A stretch of 63,992 nt of DNA, the filler included, from Stramenopiles sp. TOSAG23-3 (lineage: Eukaryota), in NCBI GenBank assembly GCA_900128585.1. It is 5 parts of 5 records of this genome, joined end to end, with 100 filler letters (N's around TTAATTAATTAA, not from the genome) between each part and the next. Parts side by side here need not be neighbours in the genome. Positions count along the whole stretch, not along the records: positions 1 to 13,226 come from LT642632.1; 4 more parts are not named here. One strand, 5' to 3'. Each line of letters opens with the position of its first letter. Position 1 is the stretch's first letter. The notes beneath the pieces were generated by a model. It searched no databases and was not told the origin of the DNA. It saw only the letters and a program-made list of their open reading frames with translations. Of this stretch, positions 1 through 63,992 are shown piece after piece. The position numbers and the translations under genes were made by a program.

Positions 1-79
1 AGAAGCAGAGAAGCAGCCACTGCTGCTGCTATATTACTTAGGACTAGTAAAACCTAGGAGGTTTGAGAGGAGTCTCCTC
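1..79 (+). repeat. Left arm of a perfect 79-bp inverted repeat (partner 4191-4269)
   Basis: 1-79 is the exact reverse complement of 4191-4269. It abuts the dynein coding sequence and lies at or near the start of the first contig. Confidence 0.95.
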
Positions 80-2952
80 ATAAGCACGTTGAGAAAGTTA
101 GCCTTGCAGTCCTGCGAGTACTTTAGATCGATCGTCTCCGAGAGCAACCCCTGCCGAAAAAGAAAAGTAGTGAAAGTCAACCACGAAGAGGACGACGCGG
201 CGCTGATCAAAACGCACGACGTGTTGAAGGAGGAGCCCATGTTCAAGTTGACCGTAGGAGTCAACGAGGGGGCTCTGTCGATCGTTCCATCGTCCGACAA
301 ATTCTTAGAAGCCGTAGAAGATTCCATATCTGAGGCGATCACCATCATCGACATTCCCGAGCGCCTGTTGACGCACGCCGACCTCGCAATATACGTCACT
401 GCTTCGAGCAGTGGGAATGACACGGTCGTGGATGAGGACGAGGATGGAAATGGTGGCGAAGATTTGATCACGCTGATAACCCAGACGCAAGATTACCAGT
501 ACTGCAGAAGCAACATCTTGTCCAGTGTGTCCAGCGCCTTCGACGAAGTCGTGGAGTACTCCGAAATATTTGAGCCGTACAAGAACACTTACAATGAGAA
601 TGTTTCCACAGAGGCCAACATGAGGGACATGTTCAAAGACGTCCCGCTCGAAACGTTTAAGACCTATATTGAAAAATTTAATGCTCAAAATGGGAAGTTT
701 TCCGGCATTCCCTACACCGCTGACATAGGCCTGATCCGTGTAGACAGCAGCCGCTTCAAAGCGTTGCTGCTTCCAAGCCCAGAAGCAATGATTCAGAATA
801 TACGGGAACTCTTGCCCCTTCTCATGGAAGAAGATGGGGACGACCTGCTCAGTGTTTTGGAGCAAGGCAACGGGCAGATGGCGGCTGTGCCAGCAGATGC
901 CTCCGAATTTGTAGCCAAGATAAAGCAGCTGGGGGGCATCGAAGCCAAGATGGACGCGCACATGGACGCGTACAAACGTTGGCAGGACATGGAGACTTTG
1001 TTTGTGGAAGAGGAATGGGCATTACCGGATAAGTTGAAAGACCAGCGCATCATGTTGAGCCAAGCGATCAAAAATCTGGAACAAGGCATTGAGCGTACAA
1101 ATGCCACCAAAGACTCAGACTTGGAAAAATTTGCAGACATGGTCAAAAGCGACTTTGGACCCCTTGTTCAGAAACCAACGAGAAAAGTCCGGGAATCCCT
1201 TGATGATCCAATGATACGGGACGATAAATCAAAGCCGGAAGCGGTACTGGCCTTCATACGCGAGCAACAGTCGGCTCTGGAACAAGCTGCTGAAAATTTT
1301 GAAAGACTGACTGGGTATCAAGAAGCGCTGGAAAAAGAGTTGGATGAGTTTGAAGACTTGGTAATTACACGGTCTGACCTGAACGCAAAACTTGCTCTAT
1401 GGGAAGCGCTCGACAATTGGAGCCGAAAACGTGAGGACTGGGAGGGAACGTTGATGCAAGATATTAACTCGGACTCGATGGACAAAGACGTGCAGCAGTT
1501 CAACAAAACAGCAGTCAAATCCAAACGCTTGCTGCAAGGCGCCCCGGCCGCAATTAAGTTGAATAATGCAGTAAACGACTTCAAGTCGCTGCTGCCTGTT
1601 ATCTTGGACTTGCGCAACGAGAGTTTGCTAGACAGGCACTGGAAAGAAATTGAAGAGGCAATCGGTCATTCGTTCGACGAAGAAAAACCAGCTTCTGCCC
1701 ACACTCTGAAAGAATTGTTAGACCTCCGTGTTCAAGACCATCAAGAAGAGATTGCAACTGTATCGACCAAGGCCATCTCTGAAGACGCTCTGGTGCAGCT
1801 TTTCCAAACGAAAGTTATCAACGTATGGAAGAAGCTTGAGTTTGAAGTCAAGCCTTACAAGGACACCCGGGACTATTTTATTCTTGGGGGCTTGGATGAA
1901 ATTCAGGCGGCGTTGGACGAATCCCTCGTCCAAGTCAATACCATATTGGGTTCACGATACTGCGGCCCTATCAGGGAGGAAGTAAACCATTACCAAAAGC
2001 AGTTGCTCTTGCTGTCGGACACCTTGGATGCTTGGTTAATGGTGCAAAAAAATTGGATGTACTTGGAGACCATTTTTGCGGCCCCTGATATTCAACGGCA
2101 GCTTCCCCAAGAAGCCGCGCTGTTCAAAAACGTTGACAAATCGTGGCAAAATATCATGGCTAAGGTCAACGGCTATCTACCGTGCTGTCCCAGGAGATGG
2201 ACCGGTACAACCAGATTCTAGTGGTCATGAGTTCGTCTCTTGAGGAATTGCAGAGAGCAATCCGGGGCGAAGTTCTTATGTCGGACGAACTGGACAACAT
2301 GTACGTTGGGTTTACCAACAATACCGTGCCGGACAATTGGGGTCTCGTGGCCTACCCTTCCTTGAAACCTTTGGCATCTTGGGTTGAAAATCTAATTGGG
2401 CGTGTGAATTTCATGCAAATCTGGCTAGAGAATGGCCAGCCAAAAGTGTTTGAACTTCCGTACTTTTATTTCCCCCAAGGATTTACGACCGGATGTTTGC
2501 AAAACCATGCACGAAAGTACCAGCTTCCCATCGATGAGCTGCAGTTCAAGTACAAAGTACGGACGGAAGAAGGCCTTGCAGATGTTTCGGAAGAGAACAT
2601 GCCCGCAGATGGAGTGCTGGTGGGAGGACTGTTCCTTGATGGCGCTCGCTGGGATCGAGAGCTGCAGTGTCTCCAAGAGTCTCACAAAGGTCAGCTGTAC
2701 GACAACATGCCAGTTATTCATTTTGTACCCCATATTGATTTGTCAAAAAAGGCGATATGGGAATATGACAACAGCGACGGTGCCGTGTACCCGTGCCCGA
2801 CTTACAAAACTAGCACAAGAAGTGGTGCCTTGTCAACGACGGGCATGTCCACGAATTATATTGCACCAATCGATTTGCCGACTCCCGCTGGGAAACCACC
2901 GTCGTTTTGGATATGCCAAGGCATTGCGATGTTGTGCGCTCTGAATGATTAA
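80..2952 (+). pseudogene. Axonemal (inner-arm-like) dynein heavy chain, 5'-truncated and internally deleted: tail/linker (DHC_N2) joined out of frame to the C-terminal domain
   Basis: ORF 89..2221 has DHC_N2 motifs (LRNESLLDRHW, WLMVQKNWMYLETIF..PDIQRQLPQE). From 2173 another frame gives the C-terminal domain (LSTVLSQEMDRYN, AYPSLKPLASW, FYFPQGF, LFLDGARWD, CPTYKT..RSGALSTTGMSTNY). No AAA P-loops are present. Confidence 0.85.
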
Positions 2953-3970: not shown

Positions 3971-4190
3971 TGTTCGGAATAACTATAGATGAATATAAAT
4001 GTATGCTTTTATTCGCCTATTCCCACGGGTACGTAGATGAAAACGATACAGAAATATTCTAAACTTTTGTTTTAATTTGTTTGTAAAAGAAAAAAGTAGA
4101 TTCATACAGTAACATTTTTTAATTCTACTATATACACTTGAAACATTTTATGAATTCCTAAAATAATAGTCGTATATATATACTTGGTAC

Positions 4191-4269
4191 GAGGAGACTC
4201 CTCTCAAACCTCCTAGGTTTTACTAGTCCTAAGTAATATAGCAGCAGCAGTGGCTGCTTCTCTGCTTCT
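4191..4269 (-). repeat. Right arm of the perfect 79-bp inverted repeat (partner 1-79)
   Basis: Exact reverse complement of 1-79. Confidence 0.95.
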
Positions 4270-5386: not shown

Positions 5387-7717
5387 TTAAAACAAATTAC
5401 GCCAGGACGTTGCCATCAGCGTCATCTTTCCCACTAACCCTGCCAGAATGATAGAGAACAGGGAACTGAATGAAATTTCCATCAGCCGCACCTGGAGCAC
5501 TGCTTCGCACACCATTTTGCTGCTAAAGGATACGCCAAGGATAGCGTTGATTTTTTTGTCCTTTCGTCTTATACACCGCTTCGATCTGTCTTTCTTCGAT
5601 GCGGACGGGCGAGACCAACCTTGCTGCTTCAGGAATTTGTCGATGCTGGGGTTCCTCTTCTCCAGTGCAGGCGTGTACTCCTCGCTTTCCTTGGACCTGT
5701 GCCACCACACGTCGCTCGCTTTCCCGACAATGGTGGCTTGTTCAAGACGATTGTTCCAGTACGTGTCCATTCTGGAGAAATCGTACTTGTACAGTTGCGA
5801 TCGGACGTACATGGGCGGCTTTTTGGTGAACGGGTAAGACTCCTCATCGAGCAAAGCAATGACATCTTTCGACCCTTCCAATATCTTATCGATGAGGTGT
5901 ATAATCCACGGCGCTCCCTGGTAATTCCCAAGCGCGGCGAACCACATCTGCCAGTCGAGCCTCGGCTGGTGGGGGGCAACCAGGGGAGGTCGTCGCCGGA
6001 CGTTCCCTGGTTTGTACTGGAATTCTATCTCTTTCCATGACTTACCGTCGTCGGAGCCTTCCAAAACTATCTCCGGCCTCGCCACTACGGACACGTGCCG
6101 CCCGTACTCGTCCTTCCCGTCCTTACCCATCCCGGTCATCCTACGAAAAAGCCCGTACGAAGATGTGACCATCCAAGGGTGGGAGGAGTGGTACACGTCA
6201 AAGGCGAACGGGGGAGCAATGGCCCTAATGCGGTCGGAGATGCTCACGAATGTAACACAGCTGGACGGCAGGATTACACCAATGACTACTGCGGTCACGA
6301 TCACAGATTTTAAAAACCGGACGAAGGCATAGACTTTGTAGCCCCTGGATATTGCAAACAAATTGCCCCCCACGTAATCAATGCCGAGAAGGATCATAAA
6401 GGCGCAGAACGGGATCAGTATGTATGGGAGGTACCCATTCACCATGTGCGTTGTGTTCGCTACTCCGATGCTTAGCGCGACCCTATGACGGTCGAGCGCA
6501 TTTGCGCGTACGCTGGAAGACTCGCTGGTGACCGCAAATAGAGACTTGCAGCACAACGCGACGAAGGCTGAAAACAGGGCGCCGAAAAGTTTGTTGCCGT
6601 GCGCTCCCCGCTCAAAGCTGCGCACGCACTTGCTCACCCAGGAGAAAACACCCAAACGATCAAACTGCGACCATGTAAAGAGCGCACCGTTCGCCCCCCG
6701 CTCTCCTTTTGGTTGAACTGAGTCTTCTTCCCGTGCCTTCAGGCAAGGGGGCGTGAGAGATGCCAGGTACTCGTCGTCCAAGCACGTAAGGGCCAGAATC
6801 ATTGTTAAGAAATTGAAAAAATTATAATTTCCCGTCAGGAAAATCAAGACCTGCAAAAAGATTTGTCCGACACTAGCGTATGCCCGAAGCTGTCGGACGG
6901 GGGCCAGGAGCAGCACCGAGAGCGGAATCTCGATGACCAGGCACGCCGCGACGGAGACTTGCTGGACAAATGGCGGCAGCTGGTGCGCGTACCACGCCAG
7001 CGGGGTCGGGATACACTGCGTTGCATAGTGGTACTCCAACGCTGTCAATTTCAACCAAGTCGGACAGTTCGCCTGTATCTTGACGACGCCGCTCATAAAC
7101 ATAAGCTTGAAGAGGGTGAAACGCAGCATCCACAGTACCACGGAAGAAGGATTTTCGTTTTTGCTAGAGAAAAGCCTCGGGGGAGCCCACATCACGGCCA
7201 GCACCCCGACTTCCAGCAACAGAATATCCCACTGGAACGAGAGAAAAGTTTGCCCCACGCCGTACAGCGAAATGTAAGGCAACCAGGACAGCGCCATCGT
7301 CACTATGTTGCACGGCCCGACCGCGGCAACGATCGACGAGACAAATCCAAGTATACAAAGCGCGTCGGCCATGGTGTCCGCGCTGAACCCGAACTGCTTG
7401 CGGTACCCAAACAGGTTGGTCAGCGACGCTTCTTTCGGATTTCGTTTCAAGAACGCGCCCGCAGGCTCGAGACCGTCGACACCAAACAGCCCGTCCCACT
7501 GAACGTACAGGGAAGCGTACGCAATAGCGTACGACACTGCAACAAGGCGACAAACTAAGGACTGGACATTCTGATAATTCGACGAACGCACAATTTGAGC
7601 ACCACCCGTATCGGGTGACGTTGAAATCGAATCGAGCGTGTCCGAGAGCATTGCGGCAGTTGCCTTTCGTTCACGGACGGGAGTTTTGCTTCGCCTTGGA
7701 CTACGAAAGACTGGCAT
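5387..7717 (-). CDS. LMF2: Lipase maturation factor (LMF1/2 family)
   Basis: FLSFQWDILLLEVG, FKLMFMSGVVK, LTALEYHYATQCIPTPLAWY, TGNYNFFN, YGLFRRMTG, APHQPRLDWQMWFAALG. Confidence 0.93.
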   Translation of the reverse strand: MPVFRSPRRSKTPVRERKATAAMLSDTLDSISTSPDTGGAQIVRSSNYQNVQSLVCRLVAVSYAIAYASLYVQWDGLFGVDGLEPAGAFLKRNPKEASLTNLFGYRKQFGFSADTMADALCILGFVSSIVAAVGPCNIVTMALSWLPYISLYGVGQTFLSFQWDILLLEVGVLAVMWAPPRLFSSKNENPSSVVLWMLRFTLFKLMFMSGVVKIQANCPTWLKLTALEYHYATQCIPTPLAWYAHQLPPFVQQVSVAACLVIEIPLSVLLLAPVRQLRAYASVGQIFLQVLIFLTGNYNFFNFLTMILALTCLDDEYLASLTPPCLKAREEDSVQPKGERGANGALFTWSQFDRLGVFSWVSKCVRSFERGAHGNKLFGALFSAFVALCCKSLFAVTSESSSVRANALDRHRVALSIGVANTTHMVNGYLPYILIPFCAFMILLGIDYVGGNLFAISRGYKVYAFVRFLKSVIVTAVVIGVILPSSCVTFVSISDRIRAIAPPFAFDVYHSSHPWMVTSSYGLFRRMTGMGKDGKDEYGRHVSVVARPEIVLEGSDDGKSWKEIEFQYKPGNVRRRPPLVAPHQPRLDWQMWFAALGNYQGAPWIIHLIDKILEGSKDVIALLDEESYPFTKKPPMYVRSQLYKYDFSRMDTYWNNRLEQATIVGKASDVWWHRSKESEEYTPALEKRNPSIDKFLKQQGWSRPSASKKDRSKRCIRRKDKKINAILGVSFSSKMVCEAVLQVRLMEISFSSLFSIILAGLVGKMTLMATSWRNLF

Positions 7718-8071
7718 TGTTACTACTTTCGGTCCCTTGCTTCGTGCGTGTATTCTCGACTGCTATCTGAACAAAGATTTCGGGCTTTTAGATATATGTT
7801 GATAGTCACACACACAAAAGTTATCTTCTTCTTCTTGCAATATAGTTAAAAATCAATCGAAATTGTTAACTATTATTTGTTTCTATTATTATAGAACTGA
7901 CTATTGTTTTTTGTCATCAAAAATTATTTGATGGCCCCACCACAAACAACTCCAATGAAAAAAATGAAAAAATTATAATAATTACTGCCTTTGTCTTCGC
8001 AGATACTTCGTACCGTAGTATAATACCAACACAGCATTAAAACCAGACGATGGAGACGAGAGACGATTCAC

Positions 8072-8559
8072 GTATCTTTGGCGCGGAATTGAAATCTTGC
8101 AATGGACTTTGTGTTAACTATTTGAAACAAAAAGATCTTTACGAAAAAAGGTTTTTTTTGTGAGTTTTAAAGTCGAAACAATGGTTTAAGATATATAAAA
8201 GTATGCGCGTGCGATTCACTTTTCGAATACACTCCTAAGAATAAGTGCTTGTTCCGGTAGCGTTTGGTCTAAATCGTCCATTTCACAAAATATTGTCCCT
8301 AGGAACCGTAATTCCAAGTCATTAGAGGGCAAACAATTTATAAACGTTCGTTGAGAAACAAACATCGCGTGAGGAACAATTGCCTCATCTAAACTTATGT
8401 AATTAGGCGTCCCCCTTGCTTCCTTTTGTCATGTTCTGGCCGAAAGCTTCCATACTTTGAAAATCGAGTCGGATTTTTTTTCGCGCCAAGGAACTTGAAC
8501 ACTTTATTGAACAGGTGTCTATCATCGCAATTTACTTATTAAAAAACAACGACGGTCGT
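8072..8559 (+). ncRNA. Dispersed ~490-bp element, copy 1; candidate large structured RNA
   Basis: Collinear with 33336-33822, 53077-53179 and 63751-63992. 13-bp closing stem 8076-8088/8479-8491; several helices with pair-preserving substitutions; no conserved ORF. The repeat itself is certain; the RNA call is inferred. Confidence 0.6.
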
Positions 8560-8930
8560 GTTTCTTCAGTTCTTAAGAAAATGGGAATTTTGTCATTTTT
8601 TGTTGTAAGTTTGTGTTGAAATATATTTCCTTCGTTTTTACACCAAAAAGAAATTAACATTTGTTTGAAGAGATGCTGCGTCAATATAAAATACCGAAGG
8701 GAAAAACGTACAAGAAACAAACAAAAAATACAAATGAAGAATTGTTGTTGGAACAGAGTAGTGTTTTTTTCAGTGCTGTATAGTGTATGTATTTCGGTCT
8801 TTTTATTTTTGAACTTTTTAATCGGAAGAATAAGAAAGGAAATGAAACAAAAAATGAATTTTTAAGAAATCTTTTTTTTATTTTTTATTGCAACGCTATT
8901 GTACTATAAAAAATAGACTTAACTATGAGA

Positions 8931-8998
8931 TATTAGCCCTGGATTAATCTGTTATTTCATGCTGTGATAGTATTACGCCTGGATTAATCTATGACTCA
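8931..8998. promoter_or_regulatory. Direct-repeat pair TATTAnnCCTGGATTAATCT (40-bp period) followed by TGACTCA
   Basis: 8931-8950 and 8971-8990, each containing the palindrome GATTAATC. AP-1-like TGACTCA at 8992-8998, about 220 bp upstream of ATG 9215. Confidence 0.35.
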
Positions 8999-9214
8999 TC
9001 ACCAGTAATAATTATTGCGTCAGCATTTTATATTTTTTCTTCAGTTGAAACAAACAAGAGAGTAACTTACTCGTAGTTATTTAGTCACAATTTAAGAAAA
9101 AAGTTTAGTAACAGACAAATGGACGATAGATTTTAAATTGAGACAGGGCTAACCTGTTTTTTTTCAATGTCGATTCAATTGAATGCGTTGTAACGTGTTG
9201 AAACAGAAATCAAA

Positions 9215-11161
9215 ATGAAACGTCCCCACAAAGGCCAGAACAGCAGTGCACGCCCTCCTGGCAAACGACGGCGACCGCTTTTACTCAGTCCGGAAGTGTA
9301 CATTACACTTATTTGTGAGTACAAACAGGAACAAGAGAGGAAGAACCCTGGGAAGAAGTGGGACGGGCGCATGCCTCGGCCCTATTCCGTCGATATGTAC
9401 AACGGAATAAGGGTTAATGTGGGCGAATGGTTGTGTGGACAAAGACTGAAATATGCCAAACGCATTAAGGATAATAATAAAGAGGAATCATGGACTGAAA
9501 AACGACTCCGTGAAATAGGAGTAAGATTACGTACGAAGATTAAGTCGGAAGAATACATTGGGTTACTTATTGAATACATAAAGGAACAGGAAAGGAAGCA
9601 TCCTGGAGTAAAGTGGAATGGGTCCGTACCTTATAGGTATTCCGCAAAATTGGAGGACGGCATAGAGGCAACCGTCGGTAAATGGCTTCTCGCGCAAAAA
9701 CGAAAGAGAACCGAACGTATTAATCATAATATTTTTGAGGAATCGCCGGAGGAAAAAAAACTCAATGAATTAGGATATGCATGGAATTCCCGAAATCATG
9801 ACGTGGAGTTTTACATCGAAATGCTTCTTAGATATAAACTGAAATGGGAAACGAATAATCCGGGGGTGGAGTGGGATGGGAAGATCCCCCTGGACCATCT
9901 CGTCGAGGGGAGGGACGGGACAATTGCAAACCTAGGGCGGTGGGTAAGTGCTCAAAGAGTACAAAGAAAGAAACGTATTCGTGATAATATAACAGAGGTT
10001 TCTCTATTAGAAAGACGACTCGATGCCATAGGAATAGAATGGAAAGGGTTAGATCGTTATTCGCGGATGATCATGTCGGACGAGTATCTCGAAGTACTGC
10101 TTGCACACAAGAAGAAGGAGGAGATGAAGCATCCTGGAAAGCCGTGGAATGGACATGGTCCTCGTGAAGCCACGTTAGCCGACGGAAAGAAGGCGAACAT
10201 GCATGATTGGTCCGCCAAGCAAAGATGCAGGAGGAAGAATCGGATTAATAATAATATCAAGGAGATACCTGAATTGGAAGCACAGTTGACTAAAATGGGG
10301 TTTTGTTGGACAAAGCGGAAGGTTACAGACCAGGATTATGTGGATTTACTTCTTGCACACAAAAAGAAGATGGAGATGGAGCATCCGGGGAAGCCCTGGA
10401 ATGGGATGGTACGGAAACGGCATATCATCACATTGGACGACGGGGTAAAGGCACGCTTGGGTGACTGGGTGACAAGGCAGAGAAGAAAGAGAAAGTTACG
10501 TATTAGTAAAAAGATAACAGAGGTACCACCGTTCGAAACATGGCTCACTGAAATTGGATTTAGTTGGGCACCAGAGAGAAAAAAAATACAATGCAAACCG
10601 TTCAGAAAAAAAAGGGTAATGTTGGAGGATTATATGGGCATATTGCTTGAATACAAAAAGAACGAAGAGAAGAAGCATGGGAAGCCATGGGATGGGAATG
10701 TTCCTGATGCATATTCCGTCATGTTGGCCGACGGAAGATTGGCAAGACTTGGCCAATGGGTTTGTTCCAGAAAATCACTGAGAAGATGTCGCATTCGTGA
10801 TAATATAACAGAGGTGTCTATATCAGACCAACGAATAGAACAAAGACTCACTAAGGCAGGATTTAATTGGGAAAAACAAAAAGTAGGGCGGAAATTTAAG
10901 AAACAAAAAGAAGAGTCGAGTGAGGAGGAGGAAGAAGAGTCCAGCGAGGAGGAGGAAGAAGAAGAGTCCAGCGAGGAGGAGGAAGAAGAAGAGTCCAGCG
11001 AGGAGGAGGAAGAAGAGTCCAGCGAGGAGGAAGAGAGTGAAAGCGAGAGAGGCGACGACGACGATTCACCATGGGACTTACGGACAATTGAATCATTTAC
11101 AATTGCATCACGAAAGCTTGAGTCGGAGGACTACACTGAATTAAGGCTCTACGATTTATAA
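9215..11161 (+). CDS. Protein with six tandem helicase-associated (HA)-like repeats and an acidic tail
   Basis: Six ~85-aa units Y..LL.YK....PG..W(D/N)G.VP......DG...LG.W...QR....L..IG..W, matching the HA domain pattern. Confidence 0.8.
   Translation: MKRPHKGQNSSARPPGKRRRPLLLSPEVYITLICEYKQEQERKNPGKKWDGRMPRPYSVDMYNGIRVNVGEWLCGQRLKYAKRIKDNNKEESWTEKRLREIGVRLRTKIKSEEYIGLLIEYIKEQERKHPGVKWNGSVPYRYSAKLEDGIEATVGKWLLAQKRKRTERINHNIFEESPEEKKLNELGYAWNSRNHDVEFYIEMLLRYKLKWETNNPGVEWDGKIPLDHLVEGRDGTIANLGRWVSAQRVQRKKRIRDNITEVSLLERRLDAIGIEWKGLDRYSRMIMSDEYLEVLLAHKKKEEMKHPGKPWNGHGPREATLADGKKANMHDWSAKQRCRRKNRINNNIKEIPELEAQLTKMGFCWTKRKVTDQDYVDLLLAHKKKMEMEHPGKPWNGMVRKRHIITLDDGVKARLGDWVTRQRRKRKLRISKKITEVPPFETWLTEIGFSWAPERKKIQCKPFRKKRVMLEDYMGILLEYKKNEEKKHGKPWDGNVPDAYSVMLADGRLARLGQWVCSRKSLRRCRIRDNITEVSISDQRIEQRLTKAGFNWEKQKVGRKFKKQKEESSEEEEEESSEEEEEEESSEEEEEEESSEEEEEESSEEEESESERGDDDDSPWDLRTIESFTIASRKLESEDYTELRLYDL
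10909..11035 (+). repeat. Coding tandem repeat (21-24 bp) encoding ESSEEEEE
   Basis: About five copies of gaagagtccagcgaggaggag(gaa). Confidence 0.9.
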
Positions 11162-11242: not shown

Positions 11243-11440
11243 AAACAAGAAAATTGGCTGTTATTTATAAGTAGTTAAAATTTTAATGTACTGCGAACTG
11301 AAATCTAGATTAAAAACAAGAAAATTGGCTGTTATTTAAGTAATTAAAATTAATGTACTGCGAACTGAAATCTAGATTTAGACATTCTNNNNNNNNNNNN
11401 NNNNNNNNNNNNNNNNNNNNNNNATAACAGCCAAATTTTT
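11243..11440 (+). repeat. Repeat family B: two tandem ~68-bp units plus an inverted fragment after a gap
   Basis: AAACAAGAAAATTGGCTGTTATTT...TAATGTACTGCGAACTGAAATCTAGATT twice; N gap 11389-11423; inverted ATAACAGCCAA at 11424. Confidence 0.9.
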
Positions 11441-32905: not shown

Positions 32906-33335
32906 CTTTCACACTCCTGAACACGGACGCCGGAAAGAGGGATGGCAGCCCTTTGAACGTTTGGAAAGAGTTATGAGGACGCGGTATGTTCCTTTACCTT
33001 GTCGATACAACCAACATGAATAATGCGTAGAAAGGCGTACCAAGTTTCCATTTAGTTTGCTAAATATATATTTCTATGGTATCCAGTAAAAACAACAAGA
33101 AGAAATTATTTTATAATTTATATGTACCAAGTCGTAATAAAATATATATCATAATAAAATAATAATGTAGTATAAGAAAAGAAGAAGAATGATTTTTTTT
33201 TATTTTTTATTATTACTCCTCTTCTATCTTCTTCTCTCCGGTGGTGGGTGGGTCGTTGCGGCTTTCTTGATTTTTAAACGATAGTATACGCACAGCATCG
33301 ATAATGAAAAAGACGAAAAGATTATTGCGAGTTCA

Positions 33336-33822
33336 GTATCTTTGGCGCGGAATTGAAAAATGGGGAAGAACTTTGTGTTAACTATTTCAAACGCAGAGAT
33401 CTTTATGAAAAAATGATAATTTTCACAATTTTAAAGCGTCAAAAGGGGTTTGAGATAAATAAAATTAGCGCGCACGATTCATTTTTCTAATGCATGGAAA
33501 AGAATACTTGTGCATTCGGGTGGCGCTTGGTCCAAATCGTCCATTTCACAAAAAATTGTCCCTTGGAACCGCAATTCCACGTCAATTTAAGGCAAACAAT
33601 TTATAAACGTTCGTTGGGGCTCGAACATTGCATGCGGAACGATCGCCTAAGCTAAACTTATGCAGTTAGGCATCCTTCTTTCTTCCATTTGTCATTTTAT
33701 GCCGGAGCGTTTCTATACTTTGAAAATCGAGACGGATTTTTTTTCGCGCCAAGGACACTTAACACTTTATTGAACAGGTGTCTATAATGGCATTTTACTT
33801 TTAAAAAAACAAGGACGGTCGT
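33336..33822 (+). ncRNA. Dispersed ~490-bp element, copy 2; candidate large structured RNA
   Basis: Full-length homolog of 8072-8559 (487 vs 488 bp) with pair-preserving substitutions. Confidence 0.6.
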
Positions 33823-34047
33823 CGTTTTATTTTTTAACAAAAATTGTGCGAATTACATAGGAACAGCATTGACATTTTTGGTATGATAATTATTTTCTGT
33901 TTGTATAAAATATTAAAAGCTGGCACGGTACTTCGTAATAATACCTTTGGTAGAGTCTACACCACAGTTCAACTTAGAGTTGACGCCATCATTGTATACA
34001 ACAGTCTTTCCCCTCCGTCCTTAGACTATTAACTCTTTTTTATTTCT

Positions 34048-39969: not shown

Positions 39970-40033
<64 letters not shown>

Positions 40034-40097
40034 AACCAAAGAAAGAAAGAAAGAAACTAACAAAGAAAGAAAGAAAGAAAGAAAGAAACCAAAGAAA
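39970..40097. repeat. (GAAA)n microsatellite at contig start
   Basis: Direct inspection. Confidence 0.95.
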
Positions 40098-40754
40098 AAT
40101 TATTATTAAAGTTGGAATACTCCCCCCTACTACCGGTATTATATAGTTAGTCTATGTAATAAAAAATAAAAAATAAAATGATGATATCATTTTTTTTTAA
40201 TATAATTAGCATTCGCTGCTGTCCAAATAAAATGAGCTGAAATATTCATTATTACACCACACAGTATAGGGGAAAAAAAGAAGAACAACAAACACTTCTT
40301 CTTCTTCTTTTTTTTTTTTTTGTATAAAAAAATAGTTTTCGCCACCAACCACAATCATCAACAAAAAAAAGAGAGAGAAAAAATCCAACAACAAGAACAC
40401 ATCATCATAACGAACGAATCAACTTGAAGTTGTTTCATACATATATATTTGAACCGACTATTTATTAATCGTCTTCTAGTAGTAATTACGAGAGTGGAAT
40501 TGAATATATATATGTATGTACATACAGTAGGAAAAGAGGAAGAAGGAAACGGAAAAAGGGAAGGAACAGATCAAGCTGCTTAGATTCGGTCAGTTTTCTT
40601 CTATTATTTGATCGGTTTTGTTTGTACAGTTAGTTGATTTCTTCGTTTCTTCGGTCGGGTGGGGTGAGTTGTATACTAGAGGGGTGTTTTCAGTGATGGA
40701 GTGCATGAGTTCGTAGTTGGCAATTAGAAAAGGACCTCTTCTTTTTTTTTAATC

Positions 40755-52792: not shown

Positions 52793-53076
52793 GATCGTCG
52801 TTGCACGTTACATTCACACGTGCCACAGGGTTTCAAAACGATAAAATTGACGTTTCTGTCATAGTCTTGGTTTAATTTTACAAGCAATGAAACGATGTTA
52901 CGAATGGAGTTAATTTTTTAGTAGTAAATTTCTGGATACGCAATACGAACGCACTACACACTCACTCCTCCGTCGTCGCACGTCGTCGCACCACCTCTTT
53001 TTCTCTTTTCCTCTTTTTTTATTTTAATGTAGACACAGCATAGGTAACGGAAATAGACGAAACATTGCGGAGTCAA

Positions 53077-53179
53077 GTATCTTTGGCGCGGAATTGAAAA
53101 GTTGCAAAGGACTTTGCGTTAACTATTTGAGACAAAGAGATCTTTATGAAAAAAGGGTATTTTTTCTAAATTTAAAGCG
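53077..53179 (+). ncRNA. Dispersed ~490-bp element, copy 3 (truncated by contig end)
   Basis: GTATCTTTGGCGCGGAATTGAAA..ACTTTGCGTTAACTATTT..AGATCTTTATGAAAAAA, collinear with copies 1 and 2. Confidence 0.55.
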
Positions 53180-53279: not shown

Positions 53280-53354
<75 letters not shown>

Positions 53355-53356
53355 AA
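53280..53356. repeat. (GAAA)n microsatellite at contig start
   Basis: Direct inspection. Confidence 0.95.
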
Positions 53357-54305
53357 TGTAATGTTGTGATGTTGTGAATAATATTTTAACGACTTTTGTT
53401 GATTCATTTCCTCTTATTAAAAGGGTGGGCACCAGACACAGAAAGAGATCGGAACATTATCCAAAATGGCAATAGTATTTTGAATAAGATCCAGAACACC
53501 ATTGTCCAGAGTGTTCTTTCAATCGTATTGCATTCATTTCGGTGTTACCTAGTAGGTATTTTTTCCGTACCAGGTACCTGGTATTAAAAAATATTAATAC
53601 AACCTGTGACCAATTCGACACAGCAGGAATAATCGGTATTTCTTCACTAGGAAATTCTATAGAATCTCATCCTTGCGCGTGATAAACAACTAGAAGGAAG
53701 ATAGCAAAGGGAACCGCTCCCTCGAACGAAGGGAACATATTTTCCATTTAGTCACAAATCCGTGACATTTGGTGGAGAGTGTGGTCTATCATTTATTCTC
53801 ATATTATTTGCATTAATATATGCAGTGTTCTTACTATTGCATTACCAATTCCCTTTTTGTTTAGATAAATTGTATATACATGTTGAACCATTTTCAAATC
53901 AATAGTGATCAAAGAAAAAAAGTGTGAAAAAGTCTGTGAAGAAAGAAGGAAGCTGGACACAGCAATGGAATGTCAGTCAAGACGACAAGATGAATCCCTT
54001 CTATCTACCTATTTTTAGAGAATTTTAATACTTGATACTGTTATTATAGTGACAGCAGTATGTATAATTATTATATATTATATAATAAACAACAACTTTT
54101 AATTATCAACTTCCGGCTCACGAAAAGGCTTGTTCCAACTATTAATAGCAATCGACCACCGGTGGTACAGTTCATTTCCTAAATGAGTACGGCCCAACGT
54201 TTCTTTCATTTTGAAAACTGACGCACGCATTATTCAGTTCAGATCCCCCAAGTTTTTGAGCTACTCACCATTGAACCGCAACAACCCCTTCCACGCACTG
54301 CCCCC

Positions 54306-58859: not shown

Positions 58860-59179
58860 AATTGATTAAGAAAACCACACCACGTGGAGCAGAAATTAAT
58901 TCACAGTACATGAAGGAAGTAAAACTTTACTGGGCATAAGGAGCAGAAATAAATTCGCGGTACATGAAGACATAAATTTTAAATACCTTAGCTTAAGAAC
59001 AGCCATTATTTTGTTTTTAAATGATTGAGTCACCTATGAGTGAGATATCGGATGAGGAAGTTGATTACGGTTCATTTGCAAGCATTGCTAATCCAGATAC
59101 CTAGATTTCAGTTTTCAGTTTTCAGTTCGGAGTACATTAATTTTAATTACTTAAATAACAGCCAATTTTCTTGTTTTTA
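58860..59179 (-). repeat. Repeat family B copy
   Basis: ATTGATTA.GAAAACCAC..GAGCAGAA..GTACATGAAG twice, then CTAGATTTCAGTT..GTACATTAATTTTAATTACTTAAATAACAGCCAATTTTCTTGTTTTT. Confidence 0.85.
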
Positions 59180-59880: not shown

Positions 59881-60089
59881 TGCACGACGCTTATAAGTAA
59901 TAACAAGGAACGCCTGGACGGACGGACGGACAGACGGGCGGACGGACGGATGGATGGATAGAGGAAGAATAAACAAACAAACGCGCAGGCACACACACAC
60001 AAATGGTCGTTGTTATTGATGAATAGGAATTACAAAGGGGCCTAGAACATGAATAATAAAAAGAGAGAGAAAAAGAAACAAATGAAGAA

Positions 60090-60138
60090 AGGAAGGAAGG
60101 AAGGAAGGAAGGAAGGAAGGAAGGAAGGAAGGAAGGAA
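60090..60138. repeat. (GGAA)n microsatellite
   Basis: Direct inspection. Confidence 0.9.
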
Positions 60139-60562
60139 AGAATAAAAGTTACTAAGATTCCTCATTATTAAAAAAACGGTATAAATAATAATAATATAAT
60201 ATTTTTATTTATATATTATTATAGAAGACTACTACTACCCGTAGTAATAATATTTAATTATTAATATTTTATAATACTGTAGTTACTAATAAAATAAAAA
60301 CTTTTTTTTTTTAAATCATCTTCTTATCTGGTTCTATCATATTATCTGATATCACACTACGGCGATAATAATACACGCACACACTTAAATTTATTACTTA
60401 AATTATATTATTATTAATATTTTTTTTTTATGACACCTAAAAAAATTATTATTCGATTAATATAATGTATTATCACCTGATGAAACCAACAACAAAAGTG
60501 GTCCAACAAGAGATCATCATCTACCAAGTAATAACAATATAATAATAATAAAGCAGACCAGC

Positions 60563-62487: not shown

Positions 62488-62673
62488 GAAGAAGGAAAGA
62501 AGGAAAGAAGGAAAGAAGGAAAGAAGGAAAGAAGGAAAGAAGGAAAGAAGGAAAGAAGGAAAGAAGGAAGGAAGAAGGAAGAAGGAAAGAAGGAAAGAAG
62601 GAAAGAAGGAAGAAGGAAAGAAGGAAAGAAGGAAGAAGGAAGAAGGAAGAAGGAAGAAGGAAAGAAGGAAGAA
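62488..62673. repeat. (GAAGGAAA)n / (GAAGGAA)n purine-rich minisatellite
   Basis: Direct inspection. Confidence 0.95.
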
Positions 62674-63592: not shown

Positions 63593-63750
63593 TGATGCAT
63601 TTTTTTGATATCACGGCATTCTTTCTCTCCAGTTTCAAACGAAAATTGGTAAATTATTATATAGGTAAACATAGGTACGTTTATTAGTATACTATATTAT
63701 TATTCTATTATTTTTTCAAGGGAGACGTTGCGACGAGAGCAAGGATGCAA

Positions 63751-63992
63751 GTATCTTTGGCGCGGAATTGAAAAATGGTTAACAACTTTGTGTTAACTAT
63801 TTCAAACGAAGAGATCTTAATGAAAAAAGGATAATTTTTATAAATTTAAACCGCCAGAAGTGCTTTCTAATATATAAAAGTATGCCAGAATGGTTCATTT
63901 TTCTAACGCTAAGAAATGAATAAGTGTTTGTTAGGGTGGCGTTTGGTCTAAATCGCCCATTTCACAAAAAATTGTCCCTAGGAACCGTAATT
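63751..63992 (+). ncRNA. Dispersed ~490-bp element, copy 4 (truncated by window end)
   Basis: Collinear with the first ~240 nt of copies 1 and 2. Confidence 0.55.

What the first reader, a model, noticed from the sequence alone, without database searches (positions are those of the whole stretch)
8072..8559. Multicopy ~490-nt non-coding element with covarying helices: candidate new large structured RNA family
Seen: four copies on four unlinked contigs (8072-8559, 33336-33822, 53077-gap, 63751-end). They differ by many substitutions yet have almost no indels (488 vs 487 bp) and no shared ORF. By hand alignment, the changes preserve + strand RNA pairing in five helices. (a) A 13-bp closing stem CTTTGGCGCGGAA/TTTCGCGCCAAGG (8076-8088/8479-8491) whose two non-Watson-Crick positions are both G.U. 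(b) Hairpin CTTTGTGTT/AACAAAAAG (8107-8134), whose 3' side reads AACGCAGAG, GACAAAGAG and AACGAAGAG in the other copies, mostly A/G changes opposite U. (c) Hairpin 8225-8254 / 33488-33517 / 63904-63933: pair 4 is U.G, U-A, C-G; pair 5 is A-U, G-C, G.U; pair 1 is G-C in copy 1 and U-A in copy 4 (mismatched in copy 2). (d) ATCGCGTG/TATGTAAT (8364-8403) vs ATTGCATG/TATGCAGT (33627-33666). (e) Long-range GCAATGG/CCCTTGC (8099/8413) vs GGGAAGA/TTCTTTC (33363/33676), in the same register with the same single mismatch. A further hairpin ACACTT..AGGTGT follows the closing stem. Inference: selection acts on an RNA (or ssDNA) fold, not the neutral decay expected of a MITE. I do not recognise it as rRNA, snRNA, SRP, RNase P/MRP or a group I/II intron. 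Four copies in 64 kb of unlinked contigs implies a very high genomic copy number.
Basis: partly seen in the sequence, partly recalled or inferred. Interest (0 to 1): 0.9.

Follow-up and report, generated by a model that had tools for sequence, protein, structure and literature searches.

The report
Length-locked multicopy non-coding element
A roughly 0.6-kb non-coding DNA element is scattered in many copies between the genes of an uncultured marine microbe and is kept unusually intact by selection, but the elaborate conserved RNA fold proposed for it is not there.

Summary
The repeat is real and larger than described. The window holds four copies. A capped 19-mer scan of metagenome contigs found 54 distinct loci. 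Thirty-four full-length copies average 78.5% pairwise identity, with only 6 gap characters in 34 x 471 cells. They have no shared ORF and no codon periodicity.

The five "covarying helices" do not hold up. Helices c, d and e pair in only 59-62% of cells, the RNAalifold covariation term is -0.07, and local fold z-scores are near 0 on both strands. Only the 13-bp long-range stem and two short hairpins are conserved, and these hardly vary.

The inference of selection does hold. At 11 loci seen in two or more assemblies, the element has 2 indels in 7,652 nt against 49 in 11,655 nt of flanking intergenic DNA (p = 7e-9), and half the substitutions.

Copies carry a TATA-like/CACAGCAT flanking module, are mosaic, show no target-site duplication, match no Rfam family, and are covered by many contigs in two RNA libraries.

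Best reading (0.4): a selectively maintained, gene-like non-coding transcription unit of mobile origin that works through fixed-spacing sequence blocks.

The parts
8016..8037 (+). Copy 1 upstream module: TATA-like stretch followed by CACAGCAT (8030-8037)
   Evidence: A forward motif with at most 1 mismatch lies about 49 nt before the 5' arm in about 30 of 54 unique loci, always preceded by an A/T-rich TATA-like stretch. It is not found in sense orientation upstream of ORFs.
8038..8071 (+). Semi-conserved spacer between the motif and the core
   Evidence: subfamily-specific spacer types (...GAGACGAAA.ATTGC.GATGCA or ...CGATTTTGCAATTGACG) ending in AGTATC.
8072..8565 (+). Copy 1 length-invariant core. 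Conserved blocks are about 8068-8162, 8268-8352 and 8448-8572; variable blocks are about 8163-8267 and 8353-8447.
8076..8088 (+). 5' arm of the 13-bp inverted repeat (CTTTGGCGCGGAA)
   Evidence: Invariant in all copies, but it is part of the search motif.
8479..8491 (+). 3' arm of the inverted repeat (TTTCGCGCCAAGG)
   Evidence: found in 45 loci independently of the search motif. Several copies lose homology right after it.
8107..8134 (+). Short hairpin b, kept by U-A/U.G alternation
   Evidence: 85.3% of cells paired on the + strand, 63.1% if read on the - strand.
8499..8518 (+). Short hairpin ACACTT/AGGTGT after the 3' arm
   Evidence: corrected register: 87.7% of cells paired.
8549..8559 (+). 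Near-palindrome ACGACGGTCGT at the 3' end of the core, followed by T-rich sequence
   Evidence: Read from the sequence; conserved in alignment A2.
8560..8794 (+). Long-class 3' extension of copy 1. It holds an inverted copy of the motif (ATGCTGCGT, 8673-8681) and a TATA-like stretch (8682-8695).
   Evidence: shared by about 20 loci, where about 110-nt units with the inverted motif recur at +596, +705 and +820.
33280..33298 (+). Copy 2 upstream module (CACAGCAT at 33291-33298)
33336..33822 (+). Copy 2 core (arms 33340-33352 and 33742-33754)
33823..33869 (+). Copy 2 short-class 3' tail: T-runs, then ...GAACAGCAT (33861-33869)
   Evidence: A tail ending in GAATAGCAT-like sequence is shared by 13 listed loci.
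53033..53179 (+). Copy 3: motif (53033-53041), spacer and the first about 100 nt of the core (5' arm 53081-53093), cut by the contig end
63648..63992 (+). Copy 4: long-class 5' extension (63648-63750) and core from 63751 (5' arm 63755-63767), cut by the window end

Best explanation
The finding is one copy of a dispersed, high-copy, non-coding element of an uncultured marine eukaryote. The unit is about 0.6 kb. It has a TATA-like stretch plus CACAGCAT, a spacer of about 35 nt, a 500-bp core of fixed length, and a T-rich end with class-specific tails. I read each copy as a small, selectively maintained, gene-like transcription unit of mobile-element origin. It is neither decaying transposon debris nor an RNA with an elaborate conserved fold.

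Proposed working: the flanking TATA/CACAGCAT module directs transcription into the core, most likely of the + strand. The product, or the DNA itself, acts through three blocks of conserved primary sequence. These blocks must stay at fixed distances, with variable spacers that accept substitutions but not indels. One invariant 13-bp GC-rich stem brackets them (8076-8088 with 8479-8491). The family spread by an unidentified DNA-level mechanism without target-site duplication, and copies exchange segments by recombination.

Shown: the family, its fixed length, no coding capacity, no covariation, mosaicism, the motif association, constraint at resident loci, and cover by RNA-library contigs. Inferred: promoter function, transcribed strand, a discrete RNA, and the protein-binding role of the blocks.
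For: Family size and boundaries: 69 of 86 motif-bearing stretches are homologous, giving 54 unique loci, with sharp shared boundaries.

Fixed length: 6 gap characters in 34 x 471 cells at 78.5% mean identity.

Constraint on resident copies: in same-locus comparisons (11 loci, 14 pairs) the element has 2 indels in 7,652 nt against 49 in 11,655 nt of flanking intergenic DNA (Fisher p = 7e-9). Substitutions run at 2.6/kb against about 5.7/kb (p = 0.005 on non-low-complexity positions). ORFs have 0.2-0.4 indels/kb. Both element indels lie at its periphery. Allelic substitutions are 5 in 3,765 nt of conserved blocks against 13 in 2,519 nt of variable blocks. Singleton variants are 2-6 times rarer in the most conserved blocks.

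Gene-like placement: no copy overlaps a large ORF, apart from three marginal or odd-frame cases. The downstream neighbour is convergent in 26 of 35 loci.

Dedicated flanking motif: CACAGCAT occurs 111 times in 539 kb, points into the core, and is rarely found in sense orientation upstream of ORFs.

RNA libraries: 82 and 88 contigs of two runs from two studies lie on the element, at all degrees of likeness, so they come from many copies.

Strand hints: all G.U positions of the stem and of hairpins b and f pair only on the + strand.

Mosaicism: L038 is 98.3% identical to L008 in columns 28-200 and 98.4% identical to window copy 1 in columns 381-505, but at most 86% identical to any copy in between.
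Against: Transcription is not proven. The RNA runs are contigs, so they show no strand and no ends. Carry-over DNA of a repeat with hundreds of copies could assemble where single-copy flanks would not (the tool's own caveat).

Promoter function of TATA/CACAGCAT is inferred only. The motif also occurs inverted downstream of long-class copies, as CACAGCAT-N8-ATGCTGTG palindromes, and at the head of another repeat. That pattern would also fit a shared transposon end or a protein-binding site.

Dispersal to more than 50 unlinked intergenic sites with sharp ends needs mobility, and modular, chimeric architecture is typical of transposons.

The same-locus pairs are not all independent: 4 of the 14 involve window copy 1. 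Assemblers may also treat repeats differently from unique DNA.

No function is shown, and fixed-length variable spacers are not explained by any known RNP.
Confidence: 0.4

Rival explanations
1. Plain non-autonomous DNA transposon, Helentron/HINE-like or another class without TSD, with no host role. Conserved blocks are cis-signals for the transposition machinery, and most extant copies are young offshoots of many long-lived source lineages.
For: High copy number, and 11 of 54 unique copies are cut by a contig end. Boundaries are sharp and there is no TSD. There are 13-bp inverted repeats with short palindromes and T-runs behind the 3' arm. Some copies carry tandem units and some are chimeric. 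These match several HINE/DINE-1 features described in PMC4067079 (passages read). Most variation is shared between copies: private variants are only about 0.6 per column in 32 copies.
Against: Resident copies show about 16-fold fewer indels and about half the substitutions of their own intergenic flanks, which neutral inserted copies should not. Conserved sequence extends 45-125 nt upstream of the 5' inverted repeat in class-specific forms, not 2-4 nt. No autonomous partner was seen, though none was searched for. Orientation relative to downstream genes is biased.
Confidence: 0.25
2. Cis-acting chromosomal DNA element, such as a replication origin, a chromatin boundary or nucleosome-phasing module, or a cell-cycle factor platform. 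Its protein-binding blocks must keep fixed spacing, and any transcription is incidental.
For: Variable spacers take substitutions at the flanking rate (5.2/kb against about 5.7/kb) but no indels, as expected for fixed geometry between binding sites. Conserved and variable blocks alternate with a period of about 195 bp. Density is about one per 16 kb in the window (4 copies in 63,992 bases), always intergenic. There is no RNA-structure signal on either strand. Both GC-rich arms resemble E2F-type sites; this is recalled from memory and was not tested.
Against: Many RNA-library contigs lie on the element. G.U-only compatibility favours one strand. Orientation relative to neighbours is biased. A 500-bp sequence-defined origin or boundary has no precedent that I know of.
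Confidence: 0.2
3. One reading: a new large structured RNA of 420-490 nt, whose fold of five or six helices is maintained by compensatory substitutions.
For: The closing stem is present in 34 of 34 copies with G.U at both non-Watson-Crick positions. Hairpins b and f pair in 85-88% of cells. Whole-core + strand z averaged -1.9 in 17 copies with 20 shuffles each (a run cut by time limit with no - strand control). Paired cells exceed all 500 shuffles, by 0.9 points.
Against: Helices c, d and e pair in only 59-62% of cells. Covariation measures are within the range of shuffled and slid controls. The RNAalifold covariation term is -0.07. Consensus energy is nearly the same on both strands. Block z-scores are -0.46 to +0.35. 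The tool's z-scores for copies 1 and 2 are -0.07 and -1.25 on the + strand, and +0.31 and -1.61 on the - strand. The top covarying column pairs are mostly non-canonical.
Confidence: 0.08
4. Retroelement remnant: a solo LTR or a SINE.
For: The size (about 0.5 kb), the copy number and the presence of a TATA-like sequence would fit an LTR.
Against: No TSD. No second copy or internal region at any locus: one motif match per locus, and no shared sequence beyond about 1 kb. The TATA lies at the extreme 5' edge. No tRNA, 7SL or 5S relation was found. There is no A-rich tail. Resident copies are under constraint.
Confidence: 0.04

Closest known systems
HINE / DINE-1, non-autonomous Helentrons (PMC4067079; passages read)
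   Same: Both are non-coding and high-copy. Both have 13-bp inverted repeats with the 5' one near the start of the part shared by all copies, a short palindrome and T-runs behind the 3' repeat, no target-site duplication, tandem repeats in some copies, and chimeric forms.
   Different: Conserved class-specific sequence extends 45-125 nt upstream of the 5' repeat. The 3' repeat lies about 70-80 nt from the end, not 38-60 nt. The 5' flank is not T-rich. The tandem units lie outside the repeats rather than between them. No Rep/helicase partner is known. Resident copies are under purifying selection.
MITEs (miniature inverted-repeat transposable elements)
   Same: Both are small, non-coding, multicopy and intergenic, contain inverted repeats, and break assemblies.
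   Different: The inverted repeats are internal, not terminal. The outer CACAGCAT motif is inverted on both sides in only 5 of 54 loci. There is no TSD. Indels are far fewer than neutral decay would give.
SIDER elements of Leishmania
   Same: Both are about 0.55-kb dispersed elements, present in very many copies in the intergenic or UTR space of a compact protist genome and retained for a host function.
   Different: SIDERs are degenerate retroposon relics with many indels that act inside mRNAs. This family is length-locked, shows no retroposon signature, and appears to be its own unit.
Dispersed multicopy non-coding RNA genes with a dedicated upstream promoter element, the snRNA-type gene architecture (recalled from memory)
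   Same: Both have a specific upstream motif plus a TATA-like box not used by protein-coding genes, a T-rich or boxed 3' end, many dispersed copies, and constraint on each copy.
   Different: This element is much longer, with 20% divergence between copies and variable blocks. It matches no known RNA family and has no demonstrated fold. The motif also occurs inverted downstream.

Membership tests
   helices c, d and e pair in 58.7-61.8% of cells; covariation score 0.109 against 0.101 in shuffles (17 of 500 reach it); no better than slid registers on both-sides changes; covariation term -0.07, and 2 of 44 pairs show a compensatory change; top mutual-information pairs are mostly non-canonical.
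   mean z -0.46 to +0.35 for five blocks on both strands, 34 copies; z -0.07 and -1.25 on the + strand, +0.31 and -1.61 on the - strand; alifold energy -23.6 on the + strand against -23.1 on the - strand. One search gave mean z -1.9 for 17 copies on the + strand only, in a run that was cut short.
Any Rfam 15 family | Covariance-model match at the gathering score | tested here: not met
   Searches (window; 415 kb of related contigs holding about 50 copies): 0 matches; the best sub-threshold E-values are 1.1-6.3.
Independent non-coding RNA gene | A discrete transcript with defined strand and ends | tested here: inconclusive
   82 and 88 contigs of two RNA-library runs lie on the element. Contigs show neither strand nor ends, and DNA carry-over of a high-copy repeat cannot be excluded.
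HINE / DINE-1 (non-autonomous Helentron) | 12-15 bp subterminal inverted repeats | tested here: met
   13-bp arms at 8076-8088 and 8479-8491, present in 34 of 34 copies. The 3' arm is found in 45 loci.
HINE / DINE-1 (non-autonomous Helentron) | 5' subTIR 2-4 nt from the 5' terminus | tested here: inconclusive
   Homology common to all copies starts 4-8 nt before the arm. Class-specific conserved sequence continues 45-125 nt further upstream.
HINE / DINE-1 (non-autonomous Helentron) | Short palindrome near the 3' end, Ts at the boundaries, T-rich target, no target-site modification | tested here: inconclusive
   Palindromes at 8499-8518 and 8549-8559, followed by T-runs. No TSD: longest flank match 6.6 against 6.9 in controls. 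The 5' flank is not T-rich, and distances are longer than the published 38-60 nt and 8-35 nt.
HINE / DINE-1 (non-autonomous Helentron) | An autonomous Rep/helicase Helentron sharing the termini | not tested
   No whole genome is held. The fetched contigs were not screened for Rep/helicase.
MITE / cut-and-paste DNA transposon | Terminal inverted repeats at the very ends, plus a target-site duplication | tested here: not met
   The outer motif is inverted on both sides in only 5 of 54 loci. There is no TSD (flanks of the five two-ended copies were also read by eye).
Solo LTR / LTR retrotransposon | TG...CA ends, a TSD, and paired copies around an internal region somewhere | tested here: not met
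   One motif match per locus. No shared sequence beyond about 1 kb. No TSD. The ends are not TG...CA.
SINE | A tRNA-, 7SL- or 5S-derived head, an A-rich or simple-repeat tail, and a TSD | tested here: not met
   No tRNA found. No Rfam match. The tail is T-rich, not A-rich, on the strand that carries the TATA-like module. No TSD.
Protein-coding gene or exon set | An open frame shared by copies, with 3-base periodicity of variation | tested here: not met
   stops in at least 50% of copies in every frame; entropy by phase 0.51, 0.56, 0.60.

The most novel reading that the evidence does not exclude
A genome-wide family, hundreds of copies or more, of host-maintained, length-locked non-coding units of about 0.6 kb with their own dedicated promoter-type motif. 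Conserved sequence blocks are held at fixed distances by spacers that are free to mutate but not to change length. This would be a kind of dispersed functional non-coding element, either a linear RNA scaffold or a chromatin/replication module, with no described counterpart, in an uncultured marine protist lineage.
Probability: 0.3. Interest if true: 0.8.

Novelty: new variant of a known kind. Interest (0 to 1): 0.5.

Why it matters
If the constraint is real, a compact protist genome devotes a few percent of its DNA to one non-coding module that selection keeps intact copy by copy. The mode of constraint, fixed length with freely substituting spacers, is known from very few elements, for example the fixed-length central part of budding-yeast point centromeres (recalled from memory).

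That would make the module either a new abundant non-coding RNA class or a sequence-defined chromosomal element in a lineage with no cultured member.

If instead it is a transposon, it is an unusual one: no TSD, nested inverted repeats, and its own promoter-like module. It also matters practically, because it is the main cause of assembly breaks in these genomes.

The finding is also a caution. Apparent compensatory changes seen in two to four copies disappeared when 34 copies were aligned.

Tried and rejected
- **Own genome:** none is held, so genomic copy number could not be counted.
- **Earlier notes:** nothing found.
- **Taxonomy by protein atlas:** uninformative. A homology search with threonine synthase gave unnamed best hits (100%, 71%, 57%). 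The best named hits, at about 40-47%, include stramenopiles and animals, so only "uncultured marine eukaryote, possibly stramenopile" can be said.
- **Protein coding:** rejected.
- **DGR-like adenine-directed mutagenesis or RIP-like transitions:** rejected (ts/tv 0.94).
- **TSD search:** negative.
- **CACAGCAT as a general mRNA promoter:** rejected. It occurs in sense orientation upstream of only 4-5 of 134-176 ORFs.
- **Variable blocks as antisense guides to neighbouring genes:** no excess complementarity (own flanks 10.7 nt against 10.5 in controls).
- **snRNA genes sharing the motif:** could not be tested, because no Rfam family at all occurs in 64 + 415 kb.
- **Viral contigs:** 0 matches.
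- **Prokaryote genome contigs:** 6 matches to a second 19-mer, none with the 3' arm, so these are chance hits.
- **Metagenome stretches:** 15 of the 17 non-homologous stretches are chance 19-mer hits in unrelated DNA, and 2 (L015, L062) are 5' fragments of the element.
- **Parts without cover in the read-laying:** the single-copy flanks on either side of the element had little or no cover in the two RNA runs, and the oligo-dT and poly(A) runs laid 1 and 4 contigs. These absences are noted here only and prove nothing.
- The analysis was redone in smaller blocks and with the fold tool.
- **My first register for hairpin f:** off by one, corrected.
- **Literature (listings and abstracts only, except passages of PMC4067079):** no description of such an element. 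Supplements were not consulted.

Full report
**Setting.** The window is five contigs joined by N runs and a ttaattaattaa linker. The contigs carry long uninterrupted ORFs for eukaryotic proteins: LMF1, HA domain, BEACH, PDZ/SH3 and a P-type ATPase. The stretch 7000-9600 is held by DNA runs labelled marine or seawater metagenome from many studies. The threonine-synthase gene has only unnamed close relatives. Its best named hits, at about 40-47%, include stramenopiles. No whole genome is held. I therefore treat the source as an uncultured marine eukaryote, possibly a stramenopile.

**Observation.** Copy 3 ends at a contig end and copy 4 at the window end. An exact scan of public metagenome contigs with the invariant 19-mer of the 5' arm returned 82 stretches. 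Together with the window, 69 of 86 motif-bearing stretches are homologous over the element. After removing the same locus seen in several assemblies, 54 distinct loci remain, and 11 of these are cut inside the core by a contig end. Of the 17 non-homologous stretches, 15 are chance hits in unrelated DNA and 2 are 5' fragments. In the window the density is 4 copies in 63,992 bases.

**Anatomy.**
- All copies share a core of about 500 bp with sharp ends.
- In 34 full-length copies (alignment A2) the mean pairwise identity is 78.5% (range 66.5-99.8%), yet there are only 6 gap characters in 34 x 471 cells.
- Conserved blocks (columns 1-95, 201-285 and 381-505) alternate with variable blocks (96-200 and 286-380).
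- No reading frame is shared, variation shows no codon phase, and the substitution spectrum is ordinary.
About 30 of 54 loci have a TATA-like stretch followed by CACAGCAT about 49 nt before the 5' arm, and a 3' tail of T-runs ending in GAATAGCAT-like sequence. I call this the short class.
- About 17-20 loci have a different upstream extension of about 125 nt. They also have a downstream extension with two or three units of about 110 nt, each holding the same motif inverted so that it points back into the core. I call this the long class.
- Window copy 1 combines the short-class 5' side with the long-class 3' side.
- The motif occurs 111 times in 539 kb, but in sense orientation upstream of only 4-5 of 134-176 ORFs. 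It also heads another small repeat and occurs as CACAGCAT-N8-ATGCTGTG palindromes.
- There is no target-site duplication.

**The proposed RNA fold.**
- The closing stem pairs in 96% of cells, but 11 of its 13 pairs never vary, and its 5' arm is invariant by ascertainment. Its 3' arm is independently conserved (45 loci).
- Hairpin b pairs in 85% of cells and hairpin f, in the corrected register, in 88%.
- Helices c, d and e pair in only 58.7%, 59.9% and 61.8% of cells.
- For the whole structure, paired cells are 73.9% against 73.0% in shuffles. The covariation score is 0.109 against 0.101 (17 of 500 shuffles reach it). The number of pairs changed on both sides (13) lies within both controls.
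- RNAalifold finds 44 pairs with a covariation term of -0.07. The consensus energy is nearly the same on the two strands.
- The strongest mutual-information pairs are mostly non-canonical, which points to linkage within subfamilies.
- Fold z-scores of five 100-nt blocks are between -0.46 and +0.35 on either strand in 34 copies.
- The fold tool gives z of -0.07 and -1.25 (+ strand) and +0.31 and -1.61 (- strand) for copies 1 and 2. My own interrupted run gave a mean of -1.9 for 17 copies on the + strand, with no - strand control.
- No Rfam family matches the window or 415 kb of related contigs.
- What speaks for an RNA at all is modest. Every wobble position of the stem and the two hairpins pairs only on the + strand.

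I conclude that the covarying helices seen in two to four copies were chance. Apart from one invariant long-range stem and two short hairpins, no conserved fold is detectable.

**Selection.**
- Eleven loci are present in two or more assemblies or metagenomes. In 14 same-locus comparisons the element (-60 to +560) shows 2 indel events in 7,652 aligned nt, both at its periphery. The flanking intergenic DNA shows 49 in 11,655 nt (Fisher p = 7e-9; with low-complexity positions excluded, 2 against 37, p = 7e-7).
- Substitutions are 2.6/kb in the element against about 5.7/kb in the flanks (p = 0.005). ORFs have 4.3-4.7 substitutions and 0.2-0.4 indels per kb.
- Within the element, allelic substitutions are 5 in 3,765 nt of conserved blocks and 13 in 2,519 nt of variable blocks. 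Some of these are the same variant counted in several pairs.
- The variable blocks therefore mutate at about the flanking rate but do not change length.
- Singleton variants among paralogues are 2-6 times rarer in the most conserved segments.
- Caveats: the pairs are not independent, and repeats may be assembled differently from unique DNA.

**Other behaviour.**
- Copies are mosaic. L038 is 98.3% identical to L008 in the first third and 98.4% identical to window copy 1 in the last third. Several other pairs show the same pattern. Copies therefore exchange segments.
- The long-class 5' extension begins with a copy of core columns of about 440-453.
- Elements never sit in genes. The downstream neighbour is convergent in 26 of 35 loci, while the upstream neighbour shows no bias, 26 against 22. 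This fits a unit read on the + strand.
- Two RNA-library runs from two studies each lay more than 80 contigs on the element, at every degree of likeness, so they come from many copies. Contigs give no strand and no ends, and DNA carry-over of a high-copy repeat cannot be excluded.

**Interpretation.** The best-supported reading (0.4) is a selectively maintained, gene-like non-coding unit of mobile origin. It has a dedicated TATA/CACAGCAT module pointing into a length-locked body whose conserved sequence blocks must keep fixed spacing, bracketed by one invariant stem.

The rivals are:
- a plain non-autonomous transposon of Helentron/HINE-like build (0.25), which shares several features but fails on the position of the 5' end and on the constraint at resident loci;
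- a purely DNA-level chromosomal element (0.2), which best explains the fixed-length spacers and their period of about 195 bp;
- a retroelement remnant (0.04).

**Novelty.** I found no Rfam match and no description in three full-text searches. The closest described architecture is HINE/DINE-1 (passages of PMC4067079). I rate it a new variant of a known kind, a dispersed non-coding repeat or RNA-gene family. There is a 0.3 chance that it is a functional element class without a described counterpart.

Noticed in passing
window 1-82 and 4188-4269: An 82-nt inverted repeat, 99% complementary, with one arm at the very start of the first contig. It may be an assembly or amplification chimera, or a real inverted duplication.
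   Followed up: no
window 11311-11373 and 59117-59179: A 63-nt inverted match at 97% between two different contigs, so another short dispersed repeat. An N run (11389-11423) lies just beside the first copy.
   Followed up: no
window 39970-40105, 53280-53357, 60070-60139, 62489-62558: Purine-rich microsatellites, (AAAG)n, (GGAA)n and (GAAGGAAA)n. Two of them lie exactly at contig starts, so they also break the assembly.
   Followed up: no
L045 near 82, 106 and 211; L021 near 4571; L052 near 4183: A second small repeat family begins with the same CACAGCAT motif (shared sequence ...TTAGAATCTCTACCGA.CGGCTC.TCCCATTCTAT...). The motif also occurs as perfect CACAGCAT-N8-ATGCTGTG palindromes. The motif is therefore a module shared by more than one element type.
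   Followed up: partly
alignment A2, columns 1-505 (window 8068-8572): Conserved and variable blocks alternate with a period of about 195 nt, with centres of the conserved blocks near columns 48, 243 and 443. This is close to a nucleosome repeat length. It may be coincidence.
   Followed up: no
window 8076-8088 and 8479-8491: Both arms of the inverted repeat (TTTGGCGCG / TTTCGCGCC) look like E2F-type binding sites. This is recalled from memory only, and no motif library was available to test it.
   Followed up: no
window (64 kb) and 51 related loci (415 kb): Not a single Rfam family, not even a tRNA, reaches the gathering score in about 480 kb of this organism's contigs.
   Followed up: partly
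L072 about 900 nt downstream of its copy; L010 and L022 flanks: Short telomere-like CCCTAA-type strings (for example AAACCCTAACCCT) lie near some copies. They are too short to call subtelomeric.
   Followed up: no
L015 and L062: The same locus in two records holds only the spacer and the first about 31 nt of the core, then unrelated sequence. This is a 5' fragment of the element.
   Followed up: no
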